In this document: piece after piece, positions 32,557 to 42,269 of the stretch | Layout of the letters: every line of letters starts with the position of its first letter | Numbering within the stretch: position 1 is the first letter of the stretch | Assembly (NCBI GenBank): GCA_041664625.1 | Contig: JBAYKK010000003.1 | Coordinates: 4,331-68,330 of the forward strand | Origin: Minisyncoccota bacterium | Lineage (GTDB): Bacteria; Patescibacteriota; Minisyncoccia; Phycocordibacterales; WO2-35-19 | Reading direction: 5' to 3' | Length of the DNA stretch: 64,000 bases | The notes under the pieces: generated by a model | Seen by the model: the letters and a program-made list of their open reading frames with translations, nothing else | Databases searched by the model: none | What the model was told of the DNA's origin: nothing | Position numbers and translations under genes: made by a program

Positions 32557-33072
32557 TTATTTTATATATTTTTCTTTGTTAAGTATTTTAGCGAAGGCAA
32601 TTTGAATTGCTTGCGAAAGAATATCTTCTCTTTTAATCATTCCTCCAGAAAAATATTTTCCAGTATCTTTTTCGGAGTCACCAGATAATCTTTTGGTTAT
32701 TTCTCCACCTTCTGTGTCTCTTTCTTTTATTTCCTCTATTACCCAATCTGGTATAGAAATCCCTGAGCTAAAAGTTATGGATTCATCATTCGCTTTCGTT
32801 TTGATATAAATACAAGCAATATCAAAATAATTTCCCTCAATTTCAACTAATCCATTTTCTATACCGACTGTAAAATCTGAGCTCGTTTCGTCGAGAGCTT
32901 GTTGTGCTCTGTTTTTGGCCCCTATTATCATTTCTCCATAACCGAATGGCTGTTTTGATATACCAGAGTCAGCCTTTACAGGTAAAACATTGGCTTCTAT
33001 TTGGATATTATCAAGAGCATTTTTCAACGCCCGCACTTTTAATCCACTTGTTGTACCTACGGCAATTTTCAT
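32557..33072 (-). CDS. non-canonical purine NTP phosphatase (inosine/xanthosine triphosphatase, YjjX-like)
   Basis: SGISKQPFG and GAKNRA match the YjjX motifs SGVPEQPFG / RAGARNR. Confidence 0.6.
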   Translation of the reverse strand: MKIAVGTTSGLKVRALKNALDNIQIEANVLPVKADSGISKQPFGYGEMIIGAKNRAQQALDETSSDFTVGIENGLVEIEGNYFDIACIYIKTKANDESITFSSGISIPDWVIEEIKERDTEGGEITKRLSGDSEKDTGKYFSGGMIKREDILSQAIQIAFAKILNKEKYIK

Positions 33073-33509
33073 TTTGTTTGATTTTTAATATTTTCTAAAT
33101 CTCCATGAAGGCAAATTGGGTCCATTGCTATTATTTCATCAGAATAGCTCAAATCCATCGGTATGTCATTAAACAAAAAAATCTTTTTATCGTTTACAAA
33201 CGCTTGACCCATTTCTATTAAAACATTTCCACCAATATAATTTTTTATGTCTTTTTTCTCATTATTTATAACAAGAATAGCATCACTTTCCAGTATATTT
33301 TTATAATGGGCTCGGAAGTAGTCGTTCTTTCTTCTATGTTCTGAATCGTCCCCTGGATTAATAGTTTCAACAAAAGCTAATTTTTCTCCTCTGACATGAG
33401 CTTCATAATCTGGGTGTATGTGGCCTTCATATCCTAGTTTGCACAAAAGGTTTTTGGATTCAACCATATGATTTACAAAACTATTGCTTCCTAAGACATA
33501 TATTTTCAT
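33069..33509 (-). CDS. nucleoside 2-deoxyribosyltransferase-like protein
   Basis: MKIYVLGSNSF N-term (YLAGPFF-like), conserved Glu in ...LIEMGQAF; 4-nt overlap with the YjjX gene. Confidence 0.4.
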   Translation of the reverse strand: MKIYVLGSNSFVNHMVESKNLLCKLGYEGHIHPDYEAHVRGEKLAFVETINPGDDSEHRRKNDYFRAHYKNILESDAILVINNEKKDIKNYIGGNVLIEMGQAFVNDKKIFLFNDIPMDLSYSDEIIAMDPICLHGDLENIKNQTK

Positions 33510-34872: not shown

Positions 34873-35502
34873 TTACAAATCTTTCAAAATTTCAAAGTCG
34901 GCTTTGAGGATGTCTAAAGTGTGAGAGTTGTAGACGGCTACACAAGGGTGGTAGAGCGGTATCACTTTTATTTCACGATTTTTCCATCCCCACTTCGCTA
35001 AAGCTTCGTGGGGCATAGCAAAAACTCGGCCGTGCATTTTGCCTATCGGAAGTAGCTCTGACTCCAAACCGAGTTTTGGCATGATATAACTCATGGCGTA
35101 GCGACCGAGAGTGGCTATCACTTGCGGTTGGACTATTTCAATTTGCCTATCCAAAAATGGTCCGTAAATTTCTATTTCTTCGGGTAGTGGGTCTCGGTTT
35201 TTGGGTGGGCGATCTTTGACTATGTTGGTGATGTAAATCTCTTCTCTTTTTAAACCAGTAGAATTTAAAAGTTCGTCCAATATTTGCCCTGCCCGACCGC
35301 AAAAAGGTCGACCGGTCTTGGCTTCGTTTTTACCGGGAGCTTCACCTATAAACATTATTTTGGCGGAGTGGCTACCATCACCGATGACTGGTAGATTTTT
35401 ATTTTCAATCCTGAATTTATAAAGTGGCGAATTTTTCAAGGCCACCACTTCATCTTTTATTTGCCTCATCATTTCTTTTCGCTCATCTATATCTCGTGAC
35501 AT
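34873..35502 (-). CDS. uracil-DNA glycosylase, family 4
   Basis: MFIGEAPGKNEAKTGRPFCGRAGQILD = family-4 UDG GEAPG / FxGxAG motifs. Confidence 0.8.
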   Translation of the reverse strand: MSRDIDERKEMMRQIKDEVVALKNSPLYKFRIENKNLPVIGDGSHSAKIMFIGEAPGKNEAKTGRPFCGRAGQILDELLNSTGLKREEIYITNIVKDRPPKNRDPLPEEIEIYGPFLDRQIEIVQPQVIATLGRYAMSYIMPKLGLESELLPIGKMHGRVFAMPHEALAKWGWKNREIKVIPLYHPCVAVYNSHTLDILKADFEILKDL

Positions 35503-35586: not shown

Positions 35587-35880
35587 ATGAGAAATGAATT
35601 GTTAGTAGCCCTAGTTAGAGCGGATGCGTCTCTGTATCATGATGCCAAAAGAGGGCTCGCAGTGCCGAAGACCAAACCCTGCAGGCTCCTTGCGTATGAA
35701 ATCAGATTTTCCAACAAGAAAAATCATAGATTTACTGCGAGGAGTGACCAAGAAGCTCGGTTTTTCGCCAAGGATATCATGGGTATCAACAACAATTTAA
35801 CGGTGGAAAAATTCCACAAAAAAGGTGGTGTCGCTATCTTTTGTGGCGATAGACAGATTTTCCCACCGTTGAGGAAATAA
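35587..35880 (+). CDS. hypothetical protein
   Basis: 97 aa ORF, slightly GC-enriched, terminator follows; no domain recognised. Confidence 0.35.
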   Translation: MRNELLVALVRADASLYHDAKRGLAVPKTKPCRLLAYEIRFSNKKNHRFTARSDQEARFFAKDIMGINNNLTVEKFHKKGGVAIFCGDRQIFPPLRK

Positions 35881-35902: not shown

Positions 35903-35930
35903 AAAACAGAAATTGTTTTGAGGCGGGGGC
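35903..35930. terminator. GC-rich hairpin terminator
   Basis: gcggggg-cctt-cccccgc followed by a T-run. Confidence 0.65.
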
Positions 35931-35943
35931 CTTCCCCCGCTTT

Positions 35944-36684
35944 TCATTTTATAGAATTATTGATGGAATTTATGTATTTACAATAATCGCAATTAGGAGA
36001 AGATTTGGGTAAGTCGTCCGAGTCCAAACACTTTTTCATATCGTGCAAAGTTTTTTCTACCCACTTGTCTGAGCCGGTATAAGGAATTATTTTTATATCA
36101 AATTCAAGTTTGCCGTCAAAAGCTTCCCTATCTCTCTTGCCATTACAATAAACAAAATAACCAGTATCAGAAACTTTTAAATCATTGTGACGCAGGAGCC
36201 ACTGGTACACTTCCATCTGTCTTTTGTAACCGTTTTGCCATTCTGCGTCCAGACTTACCTCTTCGTCTTTGCTGGTGGCTTTGTAGTCTACTACTACCAG
36301 TTCACCATCTGAAGTTTGCCAAATATCATCAACTGCTCCAAAAACAATGAAGTTGGTTGGTTCGTGAAAAGCTTCTACACCGGTGAAATTTTCTCGCCAT
36401 TTTTCCATTCGCGGATCGTCAAATGGCACAGCTTCTATGCCGTATGAGTCCATCAAAGGGTGTGGAGTTTTTTGTTTGCGATGGACATCAAATTCTTTTT
36501 TGAGCAAAAGGTCTACTGCACTGTTTAAGTTGAAGGGGAAACCTTGAGGTCGTGAGACCCCTACTCGCCTATCCAAATAAAAACAGCGTGGGCATTCTAC
36601 AAACAAATCTATTTTGGATCTGCTGACTTTGAAAGCCTCCTCTGCTTTTGGGTCGTATAATTTTTTGCGGTAAAAAGCCGTCAT
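35944..36684 (-). CDS. Cas4/RecB-like PD-(D/E)xK nuclease with Fe-S cluster cysteines (no CRISPR context)
   Basis: N-term CPRC, VVVDYKAT (D-x-K), C-term C...CDYC cysteine cluster. Confidence 0.65.
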   Translation of the reverse strand: MTAFYRKKLYDPKAEEAFKVSRSKIDLFVECPRCFYLDRRVGVSRPQGFPFNLNSAVDLLLKKEFDVHRKQKTPHPLMDSYGIEAVPFDDPRMEKWRENFTGVEAFHEPTNFIVFGAVDDIWQTSDGELVVVDYKATSKDEEVSLDAEWQNGYKRQMEVYQWLLRHNDLKVSDTGYFVYCNGKRDREAFDGKLEFDIKIIPYTGSDKWVEKTLHDMKKCLDSDDLPKSSPNCDYCKYINSINNSIK

Positions 36685-36694
36685 AGTTTATAAA

Positions 36695-37531
36695 TTAGGA
36701 TTTTTGAATCAAATCTATTTCGGCTAACATATCGGCGATTTTTTCATCTGAGAGGCCGGCTTGTTTCAAAATATCTGGATTTTCGCGAGCTTGACGACAG
36801 AGCACGATGCCAGCTTGCATCAAAAGTCTTTCGTCGCTAGGAGTGCTTGAGTTGAGACAAGTGATGGGGTGCAAATGAGCTGCTTCAATCAAATCTTGCA
36901 AATTGCCTTGCTCGGGATAGTTCCAACCAACCAATTTCATATTGCGACATTTGGCATAATTTATAGCTGACTCAGAAAATTTGGTATTGGTCACTAGCCA
37001 ACCCTCATCAAGTTTGCGTTCTTTACCAAAATCAAAAATACTGTTAATCAAATCGTCCCATCTGGCTTTGACATAAAGAGCCACTTTCAAATCAGATTTG
37101 ATACCAAGTTCATTATGGAATTTGGCTTCTACCATTATGAGTTTTTCTGTATTCCAAGCAACTATATCTACTTCGTGTTCGGCGCATTCACCTTGAGCGA
37201 TGAAGTCGGTAGTAGTTTCAAAACCTTTGGCGCGGAAAATTTCAGCCACGAATTGTTCAAATGGAAATCCGGTAGGTCCTAACTCCATCACTGCTCTACG
37301 AAGCGAGTATCTAGCTGCGGCTGGTATTTCTTCTTTGCCTAAAAGCATGAAGGCTCGACGATAAATGTCTTTAGTTGTGTCCCCTTCTTTAAGTTCATCT
37401 TCTATTTGGCTGATTACTTTTTCTGATGATTCTATACTTGCGCCAGCTCTAGCCAAAGATTCTCTTAATTTTTGGGGATTGAATTCCTCTTTTTCGCCGG
37501 TCGCTTTGATTATATAAATTTGTTTTTGCAT
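36695..37531 (-). CDS. ATP-cone domain fused to Mrr-like restriction endonuclease (PD-(D/E)xK) domain
   Basis: N-term IIKATGEKEEFNPQKL...ARYSLRR (ATP-cone incl. Y..YR-like end); GFPFEQFVAEIFRAKGF...VDIVAW...MVEAKF (Mrr_cat). Confidence 0.65.
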   Translation of the reverse strand: MQKQIYIIKATGEKEEFNPQKLRESLARAGASIESSEKVISQIEDELKEGDTTKDIYRRAFMLLGKEEIPAAARYSLRRAVMELGPTGFPFEQFVAEIFRAKGFETTTDFIAQGECAEHEVDIVAWNTEKLIMVEAKFHNELGIKSDLKVALYVKARWDDLINSIFDFGKERKLDEGWLVTNTKFSESAINYAKCRNMKLVGWNYPEQGNLQDLIEAAHLHPITCLNSSTPSDERLLMQAGIVLCRQARENPDILKQAGLSDEKIADMLAEIDLIQKS

Positions 37532-37570: not shown

Positions 37571-38740
37571 CTACTTGATAATGCCACCACCGAGGCAAGT
37601 CTCGCCATCACCTGCCTTGCCGGCAGGCAGGTATAAAACCAAAGATTGACCAGGCGCTACACCGTTTTGAGGTTTGTCAAAAGTCACTGATATTTGGTTA
37701 TTTTCTTTTGAAATACGACAAGCGATTTTTTCTTGACGGTATCTCACTCGGCATTGAATCTTTTTGTTTGGGATTTCGCCACTAAGATTTACATCAGTGA
37801 GAATTACTTTTTGTGGAGTATCACTAGTGCTACGGAACTTCTCGGCAACTGTTATAGTATTTTTTTTGATATCTTTAGCTATCACATACACAGGGCTACC
37901 CTGTGCGGTTTTTTGAAGTATGGTGAAGCCGTGGCGTTCGCCAATAGTAAAAAATAAAGCACCATTATGAAAACCTATTATTTCTCCTTTTTCATTCAAG
38001 ACTTTCCCTTCTTTTTGAGGCATGTAGCGAGATAAAAATTCTTTCATATCGACTTTACCCAAGAAGCAAAGGCCTTGGCTATCTTTGCGAGTTTCTTGTG
38101 GCAGGCCAAATTTACCCGCCAATTTACGGACTTCTGATTTTTGCAGATGACCTATGGGGAATAAAACATGTTTGAGCTGATCTTGGTTTAGGGTCCAGAG
38201 GAAGTAGCTTTGATCCTTGTTCGGATCAGCTCCTTCCTTAAGTAGCCAGTAGTTAGTAGCCAGTAGCCAGGGTTCTAAATTTGTTTTTTTATTTTTACTA
38301 GATGCTAGATGCTTACTACTAACTACTTTTTTACAAGCGTAGTGTCCAGTAGCGACAAAATCAGCACCATTTTTTAAAGCAAATTTCAAGAAGTGACCAA
38401 ACTTGATTTCTTTGTTGCACATCACATCTGGGTTGGGAGTGCGACCGATTTTGTATTCAGCTATCATATAATCCACTACTTCTTTTTTGTATTCTTTTTC
38501 TAGGTCCAAGGTGATAAAAGGAATATCCAAAATAGCCGCTACTCTCATAGCGCTTCGGCGGTCTTCTTTCCAGGTACAAGGATAACCTTCGGGTGTCCAA
38601 GCTTTGATGAATACCCCAGTTACCTCGAAGCCTTCTTTTTGAAGCAAGGCAGCGCTCACCGCACTATCTACCCCACCCGAAAGCCCGACAAATACTTTTT
38701 GGCTGTTTGTTTTTTTGTTTTTTATGTTTTTCACTTTCAA
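37571..38740 (-). CDS. mnmA: tRNA-specific 2-thiouridylase MnmA
   Basis: PP-loop SGGVDSAVSA; catalytic Cys pair; carries a ~20-aa low-complexity insert (SSKHLASSKNKKTNLEPWLLATNYWLL). Confidence 0.85.
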   Translation of the reverse strand: MKVKNIKNKKTNSQKVFVGLSGGVDSAVSAALLQKEGFEVTGVFIKAWTPEGYPCTWKEDRRSAMRVAAILDIPFITLDLEKEYKKEVVDYMIAEYKIGRTPNPDVMCNKEIKFGHFLKFALKNGADFVATGHYACKKVVSSKHLASSKNKKTNLEPWLLATNYWLLKEGADPNKDQSYFLWTLNQDQLKHVLFPIGHLQKSEVRKLAGKFGLPQETRKDSQGLCFLGKVDMKEFLSRYMPQKEGKVLNEKGEIIGFHNGALFFTIGERHGFTILQKTAQGSPVYVIAKDIKKNTITVAEKFRSTSDTPQKVILTDVNLSGEIPNKKIQCRVRYRQEKIACRISKENNQISVTFDKPQNGVAPGQSLVLYLPAGKAGDGETCLGGGIIK

Positions 38741-39839: not shown

Positions 39840-41081
39840 TTATATAGGTAAGTTAGCCGGAGCTTTAGATTTAAGTGAAGGTACTCTTTCAAATGTTGGA
39901 GTAGAAGCGACTGATCCAGGGAAGTGGAAAATAGTGGCCAATTCTTCGACATTCAAAACGAAAGGTTTGGTATAAAACTTTTTGCCTATGTAGGGCGAAT
40001 AAAAATATCGACGGAGTTTGTATTCCTCCAAAATTTTTGGTTTCAATTTTTCTTTTTTACTACCCCATTCTTGCCAAGGGTAATCAAAAATACCAAACCA
40101 ACCGGCCGGTTTGAAACCGTTTAAATTGAGTGAGCCGTATTGTTTGAAACAGCCACCGATACCACCACCGCCGTTGCCCGAGTTGAATTTATCTTTGTCA
40201 GCTATGTAGATACCGCGAATGCCGACGTCAAAAGGTATTTTGGAAACGCTACGCTCTAACGCAGCTATCATATCAGCTTCACCTTTGCTTGGTATCCTAG
40301 GGAAACCACCTTCTTCTTTGGCCACTTTCAAATCTTTTAAGATTTTTTCTTTGGCGGCTTTGGCTTCATCTGTCCAAGAATCTTCTTTTTCACTAAAAAC
40401 GTCGGCCACTCTTCTTTTTTTGTGAGCACGGATAAGTATTTGGATCCAAGCGTTGTGGCCAGAAGTAAGTGAGCCCAAAAATTCTATAAGCGGGGTCATT
40501 GGGTCGATTTTGAATTCTTCTTTGGGGTCCTTATCAAGTCCATAATCTATGTAAGTTTTGATTGGGAAAGGGTCAGCTTTGGTCAAAGCAAATTCACAAC
40601 CCCAAAGCCCGTATTTTTCAGGATCGTAATAAAAAGGTTTGGTGTAATCTTCGGCTTCATAAATCTCTACCCCTGGGTATTGAGAATAAATTTGTGATTC
40701 TATAATGTTGCGATGTTTGGGTTTGGTCCAGATAAAAAATTTGATATTACCGCCGATCGAAACTATCTCCAAAGAAAACCAACTACGAGTTTGGCCATTC
40801 CAAATGCGGTCTACCCAAGTACCTTCGCCACCAGGTTGATGCAAAGCGTTCAAAACTATTTCCATCGCTACTGGTGATTTGGTGATTTCTCGAGGTAGCC
40901 TTATTTCCAGAAGTACTGAACCTTCTTTTTGCCAAAATTTGGTGCGTTGGTAATAAAGCCAAGCATTAAAAAGCGCCACCAAAAAGGCGACTGGCAACCA
41001 TATAGGCATTCCCAAATAAACATATTTGAATGCCAAGAGTAAACCATCCCAAACTTCAGTAGGTATAAAACCAAAAACCAT
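39840..41081 (-). CDS. hypothetical membrane protein
   Basis: 413 aa, N-terminal TM helices, Gly-rich segment GNGGGGIGG; no domain recognised. Confidence 0.45.
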   Translation of the reverse strand: MVFGFIPTEVWDGLLLAFKYVYLGMPIWLPVAFLVALFNAWLYYQRTKFWQKEGSVLLEIRLPREITKSPVAMEIVLNALHQPGGEGTWVDRIWNGQTRSWFSLEIVSIGGNIKFFIWTKPKHRNIIESQIYSQYPGVEIYEAEDYTKPFYYDPEKYGLWGCEFALTKADPFPIKTYIDYGLDKDPKEEFKIDPMTPLIEFLGSLTSGHNAWIQILIRAHKKRRVADVFSEKEDSWTDEAKAAKEKILKDLKVAKEEGGFPRIPSKGEADMIAALERSVSKIPFDVGIRGIYIADKDKFNSGNGGGGIGGCFKQYGSLNLNGFKPAGWFGIFDYPWQEWGSKKEKLKPKILEEYKLRRYFYSPYIGKKFYTKPFVLNVEELATIFHFPGSVASTPTFERVPSLKSKAPANLPI

Positions 41082-41180: not shown

Positions 41181-42269
41181 TTAAGCGGCTGTGTATAGTC
41201 CTTGTTTGTTTTTCTTGAAGAACTTTGGATTTTGTAAGTTGACCATCACGGTGTTGGCTTTGACGTAACGTTCTTTCATCACTTTTTCTAAAACTTGTTC
41301 TTTGGAAAGTGGGCCATCTTTTTTGATAATTTCAGCGATCACATCTCGGACTACGCCAGTTGAATAACCCCATTCTTTCAAAGCATAAAGACCACGACCA
41401 ACCAAAACGAAACGAGGGTCTTTGATGAGTTCGTTGTGAGTGGTAGCGACATGGGCTTTTTTCTTGAAAACTTCACCTATGAGTTTGGCTACTTCTCTGA
41501 AGTGGATTGGTGAACCATGTTTGCGTAAAATCAAATATGCGTAATCACGAACTCCTTTGGTCTTGATATTTGAAGATTTAGATTTGCCCCATTCGCCCAA
41601 TGGATTTTTGGAAATATTTTTGGAAATAGAGAGCCAACGAGTGAGTATCTCATCTTGTTTGTATTCGTCGGAAACATTTTTTAAATGTTCCAAAAAGGAA
41701 TTAACAATTTCAGCTTCTGGGATTATTTCATCATCGCCCAAACCGATATAGAGTTTGCGTAAAGCCTCGTGGATTTTTTCGGCTAAGCTGCCGTCTACGT
41801 GCCAACGATGTTTGAATTCTATGTCTTCTTTGATTTTGCTGAAATCATCACCAACTACCAAAAGGAAATGGATGTATTTTTTGGTGACTGTGTCTTTACC
41901 CAAATGATTTAGCAAATCATCTTCAGAAACTACACCACCCATTTGGTTCATTATATTTTTTAATTCATCAAAAACGGCTCGCTCTTTTTCATAAGTATCA
42001 GCTTTCCTGATGTGGTTTATGGCGTAATTTTCAATCTGACGGACTCTCTCTCTGGTGATACCGTATTTTTTGCCTATTGCTTCAAGAGTCATTTCTTCGC
42101 CATTTTGATTCAAGCCAAAACGGCCCACGATCACATCTTGAGCTCGGTCTGGGAGAGAACCAAAAAGTCTCTTAACCACTTGCTTGGGGTTAAAAGAAAG
42201 GACGAATATTTTGTTTTTTGAAGCTTCTTTTATCATATAATTTATTAAATTAATTATACCCGCCCGCAA
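41181..42269 (-). CDS. sigma-70 region-4-like HTH protein with a long C-terminal extension (putative transcription factor)
   Basis: N-terminal LPDRAQDVIVGRFGL...EEMTLEAIGKKYGITRERVRQIENYAINHIRK matches sigma70 region 4, here placed at the N-terminus. Confidence 0.5.
   Translation of the reverse strand: MRAGIINLINYMIKEASKNKIFVLSFNPKQVVKRLFGSLPDRAQDVIVGRFGLNQNGEEMTLEAIGKKYGITRERVRQIENYAINHIRKADTYEKERAVFDELKNIMNQMGGVVSEDDLLNHLGKDTVTKKYIHFLLVVGDDFSKIKEDIEFKHRWHVDGSLAEKIHEALRKLYIGLGDDEIIPEAEIVNSFLEHLKNVSDEYKQDEILTRWLSISKNISKNPLGEWGKSKSSNIKTKGVRDYAYLILRKHGSPIHFREVAKLIGEVFKKKAHVATTHNELIKDPRFVLVGRGLYALKEWGYSTGVVRDVIAEIIKKDGPLSKEQVLEKVMKERYVKANTVMVNLQNPKFFKKNKQGLYTAA

What the first reader, a model, noticed from the sequence alone, without database searches (positions are those of the whole stretch)
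35944..37531. ATP-cone-fused Mrr-like nuclease plus Cas4-like Fe-S nuclease: candidate nucleotide-sensing defence/repair module
Two adjacent co-directional genes, 10 bp apart and ended by a strong terminator, encode (i) an N-terminal ATP-cone (ATP/dATP-sensing, as in NrdR and RNR) fused to an Mrr-type PD-(D/E)xK restriction-endonuclease domain, and (ii) a Cas4/RecB-like nuclease with the N-terminal C and C-terminal CxxC cysteines of the 4Fe-4S cluster. No CRISPR array or cas genes are present. An allosteric nucleotide sensor fused to a nuclease, paired with an end-processing nuclease, is the logic of several phage-defence systems. I am not aware of this exact pairing being described.
Basis: partly seen in the sequence, partly recalled or inferred. 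Interest (0 to 1): 0.65.

Follow-up and report, generated by a model that had tools for sequence, protein, structure and literature searches.

The report
ATP-cone nuclease beside Cas4-like nuclease
Two real neighbouring nuclease genes in a Patescibacteria genome look like slowly evolving housekeeping genes rather than a phage-defence pair, and the first belongs to a widespread, unstudied family in which an ATP/dATP-sensing domain is fused to a DNA-cutting enzyme that in other phyla sits in nucleotide-recycling operons.

Summary
Gene A (36695-37531, minus strand, 278 aa) is an ATP-cone fused to a Mrr-type PD-(D/E)XK nuclease. Gene B (35944-36684, minus strand, 246 aa) is a RecB/Cas4-fold nuclease 10 bp downstream.

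The defence reading is not supported:
- The pair sits in a housekeeping block (sigma-like, orf413, MltG, MnmA, A, B, UDG) that is syntenic across CPR relatives.
- Both proteins evolve as slowly as MnmA.
- Neither matches a phage record or a defence model, apart from generic Cas4 profiles.

The pairing is facultative. B lies downstream of A in 35 of 71 CPR loci and is directly adjacent in 21. B also occurs without A, and A without B.

Gene A belongs to a fixed-architecture family (448 clusters at E<=1e-30) found in CPR, Bacteriovoracaceae, Bacteroidota and a chlamydia. Outside CPR it is followed by a beta-CASP nuclease (34 of 34 predator loci). In 5 of 9 other contexts an archaeal-type nucleoside/NMP phosphorylase and a PRPP-synthetase-like gene come next, often with PPK2.

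My best reading is an adenine-nucleotide-gated endonuclease for nucleic-acid turnover and nucleotide economy, with B as an optional exonuclease partner. No biochemistry exists for the family, and I found no paper describing it.

The parts
36695..37531 (-). Gene A: 278-aa three-domain protein (ATP-cone, AF1548/Mrr-type PD-(D/E)XK nuclease, AF1548-like C-terminal domain)
   Evidence: ORF. Pfam ATP-cone and Mrr_cat both above gathering cut-offs. PDB 1Y88 at E=9e-32 over residues 93-272. AF2 pLDDT 92.5. Foldseek matches to 1Y88 and NrdR cones. A 100 %-identical protein is on record in a Paceibacterota MAG.
37271..37531 (-). ATP-cone domain of gene A (residues ~1-87)
   Evidence: PF03477 28.9 bits against cut-off 25.8. 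Sub-threshold NrdR and RNR hits on the same residues. 81-column superposition on NrdR cones at rmsd 1.8-2.0 A. K9, A10, G12 and K21 invariant in CPR plus Bacteroidota homologues.
36917..37270 (-). PD-(D/E)XK nuclease core of gene A (residues ~88-205). Catalytic D122 (37166-37168), E135 (37127-37129), K137 (37121-37123)
   Evidence: PF04471 36.9 bits. D122, E135, K137 and H139 invariant. Same 13-residue D-to-E spacing as the D38/E51/K53 triad predicted for AF1548 in PMC1821046.
36695..36916 (-). C-terminal helical domain of gene A (residues ~206-278, AF1548-like_C), plus stop codon
   Evidence: Aligned to AF1548 residues ~126-192. PF22357 recorded for many homologues. Helical in the model. A DNA-binding role is my inference.
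36685..36694 (-). 10-bp spacer between gene A and gene B
   Evidence: Coordinates. In relatives the spacing ranges from 0 to 1556 bp.
35944..36684 (-). Gene B: 246-aa RecB/Cas4-fold PD-(D/E)XK nuclease with a CxxC...CxxC four-cysteine site
   Evidence: PDDEXK_1 52.1 bits; Cas4 models below cut-off. Invariant C31, C34, C232, C235, D119, D120, D133, Y134, K135, Q156, Y160. Model matches AdnAB, MGME1, Cas4, EXO5 and RecE.
35920..35943 (.). GC-rich hairpin directly after gene B's stop codon. Canonical terminator for the plus-strand ORF; hairpin without adjoining U-tract on the minus strand
   Evidence: Terminator scan flags it on the plus strand only. Sequence read. Folds at -17.8 and -17.9 kcal/mol, z about -2.6, on either strand.
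35587..35880 (+). Convergent 97-aa ORF between gene B and UDG (context, function unknown)
   Evidence: ORF. No Pfam or PHROG match. TATAAT-like box and GGGAG before the ATG, read from the sequence. Partial homologue at the same position and orientation in L002.
37571..38740 (-). mnmA (tRNA 2-thiouridylase), the conserved upstream neighbour (context)
   Evidence: Pfam tRNA_Me_trans 237 bits. Upstream of gene A in 65 of 71 CPR loci.
34873..35502 (-). Uracil-DNA glycosylase superfamily gene, a frequent downstream member of the block (context)
   Evidence: PF03167 113.9 bits. Downstream of gene A in 39 of 71 CPR loci.

Best explanation
These are two separate, slowly evolving housekeeping nucleases of a Patescibacteria genome, not a dedicated defence system.

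Gene A is a cytoplasmic endonuclease. An intact D-ExK PD-(D/E)XK active site of the AF1548/Mrr type is coupled to an N-terminal ATP-cone and a C-terminal helical domain that probably binds DNA. By analogy with ribonucleotide reductase and NrdR, binding of adenine nucleotides (ATP versus dATP) to the cone would change the oligomeric state and so switch cleavage on or off. That would tie nucleic-acid breakdown to the nucleotide or energy pool. The fragments would then be trimmed to mononucleotides by a second nuclease: the beta-CASP enzyme encoded next to gene A in other phyla, and possibly the Cas4-like gene B here. The products would feed nucleotide salvage.

Gene B is an autonomous RecB/Cas4-family exonuclease stapled by a four-cysteine metal site. 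It lies next to gene A in roughly half of CPR relatives as part of a conserved synteny block.

Shown: domain architecture, conserved catalytic and sensor residues, phyletic spread, gene contexts and conservation level. Inferred: the ligand, the direction of regulation, the substrate (DNA or RNA), and any cooperation between A and B.
For: Architecture and intact motifs: for gene A; for gene B.

The family has a fixed architecture and is sizeable. It has 448 clusters at E<=1e-30 and 847 at E<=1e-10, and most of the top 150 are about 265-295 aa and match end to end.

It occurs in CPR, Bacteriovoracaceae, Bacteroidota and Criblamydia.

Outside CPR, gene A is immediately followed by a homologous beta-CASP/RMMBL nuclease in 34 of 34 Bacteriovoracaceae-type loci. 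In 5 of 9 other contexts the order is gene A, beta-CASP, a TIGR02645-type phosphorylase (579.8 bits against cut-off 434.6; AMP phosphorylase 486 against 535), then a ribose-phosphate diphosphokinase. PPK2 and a P-type ATPase follow in 4 of 9.

Recurrent accessory neighbours are metabolic or stress genes, not defence genes: Usp, 2-hydroxyacid dehydrogenase, PFK, PEPCK, MazG-like, AAA_28.

In CPR the context is housekeeping. MnmA is upstream in 65 of 71 loci, and sigma-like, orf413 and MltG lie further upstream. An NTPase_I-T nucleotide-sanitising gene lies 2.9 kb away in the window.

Over 33 loci, mean identity to the window is 59 % for gene A and 65 % for gene B, against 56 % for MnmA and 53 % for MltG.

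Gene A has no match in phage records or IMG/VR contigs. Gene B has none in phage records. Only 2 of 72,556 plasmids carry gene A, both inside the salvage-type operon.
Against: - No member of the family has been assayed. Nuclease activity, ligand and substrate are all inferred.
- The ATP-cone carries an invariant Lys-Ala where, from my memory of RNR and NrdR cones, Lys-Arg is usual. ATP/dATP binding is therefore not assured.
- The window and the CPR loci contain no beta-CASP, phosphorylase, Prs or PPK2 gene. Transferring the salvage context to CPR is an extrapolation.
- In CPR the downstream genes are DNA-repair flavoured: Cas4-like, an MGMT-like DNA-binding protein and UDG. That fits repair equally well.
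- The beta-CASP partner belongs to the CPSF/RNase-J-like branch, whereas gene B's structural relatives act on DNA. The two partners may not be functionally equivalent.
- The A-B adjacency is interrupted by unrelated genes in many loci.
- The loci are not phylogenetically independent, and the scans were seeded from the query.
Confidence: 0.45

Rival explanations
1. DNA-repair block. Gene A is a damage- or structure-specific endonuclease whose action is licensed by the dNTP/ATP pool through the ATP-cone. Gene B resects the nicked or broken DNA. Both work alongside the neighbouring alkyltransferase-like protein and uracil-DNA glycosylase in a compact CPR repair cluster.
For: In CPR the order MnmA, A, [Cas4-like], [MGMT-like DNA_binding_1], [UDG] recurs: Cas4-like in 35, MGMT-like in 25 and UDG in 39 of 71 loci. 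Gene B's structural relatives are repair or resection nucleases (AdnAB, EXO5, MGME1, RecE). One locus has an ExoX-like DNA exonuclease in gene B's place. Both genes are strongly conserved.
Against: Outside CPR, gene A is never seen with these repair genes. It is seen with a beta-CASP nuclease and nucleotide-catabolic or energy genes. The CPR block also holds unrelated housekeeping genes, and unrelated membrane-protein genes are often inserted after gene A, so shared ancestry could explain the order. No lesion-recognition domain was detected in gene A.
Confidence: 0.25
2. Gene A is mainly a nucleotide-sensing DNA-binding regulator, a functional analogue of NrdR. Its nuclease fold and C-terminal domain bind operators, and it controls the operon it heads (beta-CASP, phosphorylase and Prs elsewhere; gene B here).
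For: It shares its sensor domain with NrdR, and its models match NrdR cones. It is the first gene of the operon in every non-CPR context that has partners. It is small and has a uniform length.
Against: The catalytic D122, E135 and K137 plus H139 are invariant across phyla, which is not expected of a fold recruited only for binding. There was no hit to a helix-turn-helix or other regulator family.
Confidence: 0.1
3. One reading: a two-gene phage-defence module. Gene A senses infection-induced changes in ATP/dATP and cuts DNA, and gene B processes the ends.
For: Sensor-plus-PD-(D/E)XK nucleases are used in immunity, and the gene A model shows distant fold resemblance to Can2, Cdn1 and MspJI. 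Weak PADLOC hits for gene A to Mrr-like modules, E of 1e-3 or worse. Solo gene B orthologues (61-65 % identity) sit next to OLD plus UvrD, HerA, or a PHP/SMC-like ATPase with an integrase on some contigs.
Against: No defence genes lie around the pair in the window or in 71 CPR loci. Conservation is at housekeeping level. Synteny with MnmA and MltG is stable. Gene A is absent from phage and IMG/VR records and nearly absent from plasmids; gene B is absent from phage records. The pairing is facultative in both directions. Non-CPR contexts are metabolic.
Confidence: 0.07

Closest known systems
AF1548 of Archaeoglobus fulgidus (PDB 1Y88), a structural-genomics protein of unknown function
   Same: The nuclease core and C-terminal domain are homologous: E=9e-32 over residues 93-272 and Foldseek E=6.6e-15 at 38 % identity. 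The D...ExK spacing matches the catalytic triad predicted in PMC1821046.
   Different: AF1548 (199 aa) has no ATP-cone. Its function has never been tested either, so it gives no functional anchor.
ATP-cone of NrdR and ribonucleotide reductases
   Same: Same sensor fold (Pfam above cut-off; 81 columns at 1.8-2.0 A to NrdR cones). Conserved K9, G12 and K21. Likely the same logic of nucleotide-dependent oligomerisation, which is my inference.
   Different: The output domain is a nuclease rather than a reductase or a zinc-ribbon repressor. Lys-Ala is invariant where, from memory, Lys-Arg is usual. The ligand has not been determined.
Mrr, a type IV modification-dependent restriction endonuclease
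   Same: Catalytic domain family PF04471 with the D-ExK motif.
   Different: No Mrr N-terminal winged-helix domain for sensing modified DNA was detected. No restriction or defence context. Conservation is at housekeeping level.
Ligand-gated PD-(D/E)XK nucleases Can2/Card1 and Cdn1 of type III CRISPR/CBASS-like signalling
   Same: Works alike in outline: a nucleotide-binding sensor domain fused to a PD-(D/E)XK nuclease. Distant fold matches at E about 1e-3 to 2e-2.
   Different: Their sensor is a CARF/SAVED-type domain binding cyclic oligoadenylates, not an ATP-cone. There are no CRISPR or cyclase genes here. Not homologous beyond the nuclease fold.
Cas4, AddB/AdnAB nuclease domains and EXO5 (iron-staple RecB-family nucleases), for gene B
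   Same: Fold, the D...D/ExK and QxxxY motifs, and a four-cysteine site joining the N- and C-terminal helices.
   Different: Cysteine layout is 2+2 (CxxC...CxxC), not 1+3. Below the curated Cas4 cut-offs. No cas1, cas2 or CRISPR array. No fused helicase.
Archaeal/CPR NMP-degradation (pentose bisphosphate) pathway centred on AMP phosphorylase
   Same: In Bacteroidota and Criblamydia, gene A heads an operon containing an archaeal-type phosphorylase close to AMP phosphorylase (486 bits against cut-off 535) and a Prs-family enzyme.
   Different: No RuBisCO or ribose-1,5-bisphosphate isomerase was seen in those loci. None of these genes is in the window. The link to nucleases has not been described in the papers I could search.

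Membership tests
ATP-cone domain (PF03477) | Profile match above the curated cut-off | tested here: met
   28.9 bits against 25.8, residues 5-56. The precomputed PF03477 label appears on most homologues.
ATP-cone domain (PF03477) | Four-helix bundle capped by a beta-hairpin, superposable on known cones | tested here: met
   AF2 model has strands 6-8 and 14-16 followed by helices 19-87. NrdR cones align over 81 columns at rmsd 1.8-2.0 A.
ATP-cone domain (PF03477) | Binds ATP and/or dATP through conserved basic residues | tested here: inconclusive
   K9 and K21 are invariant, but position 10 is an invariant Ala where, from memory, RNR/NrdR cones carry Arg. Binding cannot be tested in silico here.
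Mrr_cat / AF1548-type PD-(D/E)XK nuclease | Profile match plus a D...(D/E)xK catalytic motif | tested here: met
   PF04471 36.9 bits against 21. D122, E135 and K137 invariant. 1Y88 at E=9e-32.
Mrr type IV restriction enzyme | N-terminal winged-helix domain that recognises modified DNA | tested here: not met
   The N-terminus is an ATP-cone and no Mrr_N hit was found.
CRISPR-associated Cas4 | Score above the curated Cas4 cut-offs | tested here: not met
   TIGR00372 38.8 against 65; PF01930 21.2 against 22.7.
CRISPR-associated Cas4 | Located with cas1/cas2 and a CRISPR array | tested here: not met
   No repeat array in 64 kb. The neighbours are MnmA, UDG and similar genes.
CRISPR-associated Cas4 | One N-terminal plus three C-terminal cysteines binding a 4Fe-4S cluster | tested here: not met
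   The invariant cysteines are C31, C34, C232 and C235, a 2+2 layout. Whether the metal is Fe-S or Zn cannot be determined here.
RecB/Cas4/EXO5 nuclease superfamily (PDDEXK_1) | Fold and catalytic motifs | tested here: met
   PF12705 52.1 bits against 22. Foldseek matches to AdnAB, MGME1, Cas4, EXO5 and RecE at E 2e-5 to 5e-4. D119/D120, D133-Y-K135 and Q156...Y160 invariant.
Known anti-phage defence systems (PADLOC-DB) | Significant match of the components to a defence-system model | tested here: not met
   Gene A's best hit is E=1.4e-3. Gene B matches only generic Cas4 models.
Defence island or mobile defence module | Variable, defence-rich or mobile context; presence on phages or plasmids; fast evolution | tested here: not met
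   Housekeeping synteny in 71 CPR loci. Gene A has no phage or IMG/VR hit, and gene B has no phage-record hit. Gene A is on 2 of 72,556 plasmids. Identity to the window is at least that of MnmA. Caveat: solo gene B orthologues do sit next to OLD plus UvrD or HerA on a few contigs.
Gene A - beta-CASP - phosphorylase - Prs operon (unnamed, seen in Bacteroidota and Criblamydia) | Gene A followed by a beta-CASP nuclease and nucleotide-catabolic genes | tested here: not met
   None of these partner genes is in the window or in the CPR loci. The window's gene A is an orthologue of the first gene only.

The most novel reading that the evidence does not exclude
The ATP-cone/AF1548 nuclease is the allosteric gatekeeper of a cross-phylum pathway that converts intracellular or imported nucleic acid into nucleotides and ribose phosphate. 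The steps would be endonuclease, then a beta-CASP or Cas4-like exonuclease, then an NMP/nucleoside phosphorylase, then PRPP. It would be a salvage-side counterpart of the ATP/dATP control known from ribonucleotide reductase and NrdR. In host-dependent Patescibacteria and predatory Bacteriovoracaceae it would control how scavenged nucleic acid is turned into building blocks.
Probability: 0.3. Interest if true: 0.7.

Novelty: new variant of a known kind. Interest (0 to 1): 0.45.

Why it matters
As far as I know and could find, ATP-cones have been studied experimentally only as regulators of ribonucleotide reductase and its repressor NrdR. A conserved family in which the same sensor is fused to an intact nuclease would extend ATP/dATP allostery to nucleic-acid breakdown.

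The family spans at least four phyla. Outside CPR it is wired to a second nuclease and to nucleotide-catabolic genes.

For Patescibacteria, which are widely reported to depend on scavenged nucleotides, it would name a candidate control point of that economy.

The result also shows that 'sensor plus nuclease' is not enough to call a defence system. Context and evolutionary rate argue otherwise here.

Tried and rejected
**Literature.** Searches for AF1548, 'ATP-cone' with 'restriction endonuclease', 'Mrr', 'REase' or 'nuclease/Patescibacteria', and for the operon's gene names found no description of the fusion or the operon. The Pseudomonas metalloproteome paper that held both terms was irrelevant.

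**Defence checks.** All were negative for gene A:
- PADLOC.
- Phage records.
- IMG/VR: gene A none; gene B on 7 contigs, at least three of which carry a cellular MltG homologue.
- CRISPR-like repeats: only one 24-nt pair, probably chance.

**RNA genes.** There is no tRNA or Rfam match in the window, so the 440-bp gap after gene B holds no known RNA gene.

**Non-homologous displacement of an exonuclease partner within CPR.** I considered this and rejected it as weak. Only 1 of 71 loci has an ExoX-like gene in gene B's place. The slot is otherwise often filled by a small membrane protein (probably MgtC/SapB-like by eye; no Pfam scan was run), by UDG, or by unknown genes.

**Secreted nuclease attacking host or prey DNA.** Rejected. 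The N-terminus is the folded ATP-cone hairpin and has no signal-peptide-like segment.

**Degraded MGMT-like gene in the window.** None found.

**Cysteine geometry.** I could not measure Cys-Cys distances because model coordinates are not exposed to scripts.
Full report
**1. What is in the sequence**

Two co-directional minus-strand ORFs occupy the stated coordinates. Gene A is 36695..37531 (278 aa) and gene B is 35944..36684 (246 aa), with 10 bp between them.

Gene A passes Pfam's curated cut-offs for ATP-cone (28.9 bits against 25.8, residues 5-56) and Mrr_cat (36.9 against 21, residues 88-201). Residues 93-272 match the Archaeoglobus protein AF1548 (PDB 1Y88) at E=9e-32. AF1548 includes a C-terminal domain, Pfam AF1548-like_C, which is recorded for many homologues.

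An AlphaFold model built on 30 homologues is confident (pLDDT 92.5, pTM 0.86). Foldseek finds 1Y88 first (E=6.6e-15). NrdR ATP-cones superpose on the N-terminus over 81 columns at 1.8-2.0 A. There is also distant resemblance to sensor-plus-PD-(D/E)XK nucleases such as Can2, Cdn1 and MspJI.

Across CPR, Bacteriovoracaceae and Bacteroidota homologues, several positions are invariant. These are the cone residues K9, A10, G12 and K21 and the nuclease residues D122, E135, K137 and H139. The D-to-ExK spacing equals that of the triad predicted for AF1548 by Yooseph et al. (PMC1821046).

Gene B passes PDDEXK_1 (52.1 bits against 22) but not the Cas4 cut-offs (TIGR00372 38.8 against 65; PF01930 21.2 against 22.7). 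Its model (pLDDT 86.1) matches AdnAB nuclease domains, MGME1, Cas4, EXO5 and RecE.

Gene B's nuclease motifs are invariant (D119/D120, D133-Y-K135, Q156...Y160). So are four cysteines: C31, C34, C232 and C235. That is a CxxC...CxxC arrangement, not the one-plus-three pattern of Cas4 and AddB.

**2. The terminator**

The GC-rich hairpin at 35920-35943 begins one base after gene B's stop codon. Its T-run is on the plus strand. On the gene A/B strand it is followed by CUCAAAACAAUUUCUGUUUU. It folds equally well on either strand, at about -17.8 kcal/mol with z about -2.6.

It is therefore the canonical terminator of the convergent 97-aa ORF at 35587..35880. By inspection of the sequence, that ORF has a TATAAT-like box and a GGGAG ribosome-binding site. 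It also has a partial homologue at the same place and orientation in locus L002. The hairpin may act in both directions, but that is an inference.

**3. Host and context**

A 100 %-identical gene A protein is on record from a Paceibacterota MAG. The window's neighbours are housekeeping genes:
- AlaRS, by inspection of the translation.
- An NTPase_I-T.
- An M16 peptidase.
- UDG.
- MnmA.
- MltG/YceG.
- A conserved protein with no Pfam match.
- A Sigma70_r4 plus HARE-HTH protein.
- LeuRS, by inspection of the translation.

There are no tRNA genes, Rfam matches or CRISPR-like repeats.

**4. Is the pair a module?**

I fetched 51 loci from species-representative genomes and 80 from metagenomes. Among 71 CPR loci with at least 1.5 kb downstream of gene A:

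| Feature | Loci |
|---|---|
| MnmA upstream | 65 |
| UDG downstream | 39 |
| Gene B downstream, same strand | 35 |
| Gene B within 150 bp | 21 |
| MGMT-like DNA-binding gene downstream | 25 |
| ExoX-like exonuclease downstream | 1 |
| beta-CASP gene | 0 |

The first ORF after gene A is distributed as follows:

| First downstream ORF | Loci |
|---|---|
| Gene B | 24 |
| Small membrane protein (probably MgtC/SapB-like by eye; no Pfam scan run) | 14 |
| UDG | 12 |
| Unknown secreted protein | 6 |
| MGMT-like | 2 |
| AlaRS-like | 2 |
| ExoX-like | 1 |
| Singletons | 10 |

Conversely, seven IMG/VR contigs carry gene B orthologues (61-65 % identity) with no gene A within 6 kb. There, gene B sits next to an OLD-family nuclease plus UvrD helicase, a HerA helicase, or a PHP/SMC-like ATPase with an integrase. 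Three of those contigs also carry an MltG homologue, so they may be cellular rather than viral.

The two genes are therefore separable in both directions.

**5. Evolutionary rate and mobility**

Over 33 loci that hold full-length MnmA, gene A and gene B, the mean identities to the window proteins are:

| Protein | Mean identity |
|---|---|
| Gene A | 59 % |
| Gene B | 65 % |
| MnmA | 56 % |
| MltG | 53 % |

Gene A has no match in 50,697 phage records or in IMG/VR. Gene B has none in the phage records. Only 2 of 72,556 plasmids encode a full-length gene A homologue. PADLOC gives nothing with E below 1e-3 for gene A and only generic Cas4 models for gene B. PHROGs give only the ATP-cone of phage RNRs for gene A and Cas4-like or exonuclease families for gene B.

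This is the profile of core genes, not of a defence system.

**6. What gene A does elsewhere**

The family is uniform. It has 448 clusters (at 50 % identity) with E<=1e-30 and 847 with E<=1e-10. Most of the best 150 are about 265-295 aa and align end to end.

It occurs in CPR, in Bacteriovoracaceae at 35-44 % identity, widely in Bacteroidota, and on a Criblamydia plasmid.

In all 34 Bacteriovoracaceae-type loci, gene A is immediately followed by a ~431-aa beta-CASP/RMMBL metallo-beta-lactamase nuclease. That protein is homologous (31-36 %) to the one that follows gene A in Bacteroidota and Criblamydia.

In 5 of 9 other contexts the order is gene A, beta-CASP, a ~506-aa phosphorylase, then a ribose-phosphate diphosphokinase (L052, L053, L056, L145, L148). 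The phosphorylase meets TIGR02645 (579.8 bits against 434.6) and nearly meets the AMP-phosphorylase cut-off (486 against 535). In 4 of 9 a PPK2 and a P-type ATPase follow.

Neighbours recurring across phyla are Usp, 2-hydroxyacid dehydrogenase, AAA_28 and P-type ATPase. Also seen are PFK, a GAPDH-like gene, PEPCK, MazG-like, phosphoketolase, acetate kinase and Crp/FNR-like regulators. None is a defence gene. Two contexts show gene A alone or with only an ATPase.

**7. Interpretation**

The strongest and phylogenetically broadest association of gene A is with a second nuclease and with enzymes that process nucleotides. This supports a role in regulated nucleic-acid turnover feeding the nucleotide pool. 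The ATP-cone would couple cleavage to adenine-nucleotide levels, as it couples activity to ATP/dATP in RNR and NrdR (established knowledge of those families).

The direction of regulation, the ligand and the substrate are all inferred:
- **Ligand.** Lys-Ala is invariant where, from memory, Lys-Arg is usual.
- **Substrate.** The beta-CASP partner belongs to the RNase-type branch. Gene B's relatives act on DNA.

For the window itself the salvage partners are absent. The local neighbours are repair-flavoured (gene B and UDG; an MGMT-like gene in relatives), so DNA repair is a serious rival.

A regulator role analogous to NrdR is possible, but the invariant catalytic residues disfavour it. Defence is the least supported reading.

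**8. Caveats**

- The scans are seeded from the query, and the loci are not independent lineages.
- Conserved order in CPR can reflect ancestry rather than function.
- My ORF calling for the neighbourhood statistics was a simple longest-ORF procedure.
- The 'viral' label of the IMG/VR contigs is unverified.
- Nothing here has been tested at the bench.

**9. Verdict**

The defence-module interpretation is not supported, and the pairing is facultative.

What remains of interest is gene A's family. It is an uncharacterised, cross-phylum ATP-cone-gated nuclease, and I could find no paper about it. I rate it a new variant of a known kind (ligand-gated PD-(D/E)XK nucleases, or ATP-cone allostery with a new output), with interest 0.45.

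Noticed in passing
window 35587-35880 (+) and hairpin 35920-35943: A convergent 97-aa ORF with no family match. It has a TATAAT-like box, a GGGAG ribosome-binding site and a canonical terminator. A partial homologue (46 % over 57 aa) lies at the same position and orientation in L002 11646-11816.
   Followed up: partly
L052 6995-11602; L053 1972-6597; L056 7001-14855; L145; L148: A conserved operon in Bacteroidota and Criblamydia: ATP-cone nuclease, beta-CASP/RMMBL nuclease, TIGR02645-type (near-AMP) phosphorylase, Prs-like kinase, an unknown ~229-aa protein, PPK2, then a P-type ATPase. It looks like an undescribed nucleic-acid-to-nucleotide catabolic or salvage cluster within metabolic and stress islands (Usp, PFK, 2-hydroxyacid dehydrogenase, phosphoketolase, acetate kinase).
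   Followed up: partly
L060 1803-6762 (also L062, L063); L064 2-2384; L058 3177-8194: Gene B orthologues (61-65 % identity) without gene A. They lie directly downstream of an OLD-family ATPase/TOPRIM plus UvrD helicase pair (Gabija-like), of a HerA helicase, or of a PHP/SMC-like ATPase followed by an integrase. The Cas4-like nuclease may team up with different motor proteins, or its locus may be an insertion hotspot.
   Followed up: partly
window 36695-37531 (gene A residues C116, C195, C225, C245): Four cysteines in gene A are invariant or nearly so across CPR and Bacteroidota. Three are also present in AF1548.
   Followed up: no
window 39840-41081 (-) and 41181-42269 (-): A 413-aa protein with no Pfam match and a 362-aa protein combining Sigma70 region 4 with a HARE-HTH domain. 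Both are conserved in the same order upstream of MltG and MnmA in most CPR loci (33-86 % identity).
   Followed up: no
window 32557-33509 (-): An NTPase_I-T (inosine/xanthosine triphosphatase family) gene overlaps by 4 bp a 146-aa ORF that has no Pfam match. Together they may form a small nucleotide-sanitising pair, 2.4-3.4 kb from gene B.
   Followed up: no
L013 10687-11121 and 13 other CPR loci: A ~145-aa membrane-protein gene is inserted between gene A and gene B or UDG in 14 of 71 CPR loci. By eye it resembles the MgtC/SapB family, but no Pfam scan was run on it. It shows that the slot after gene A tolerates unrelated insertions.
   Followed up: partly
window 36594-36617 and 36700-36723: A 24-nt imperfect direct repeat (79 % identity, 106 bp apart) straddles the gene A/gene B junction. 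It is the only short-range repeat in the window and is probably chance.
   Followed up: no
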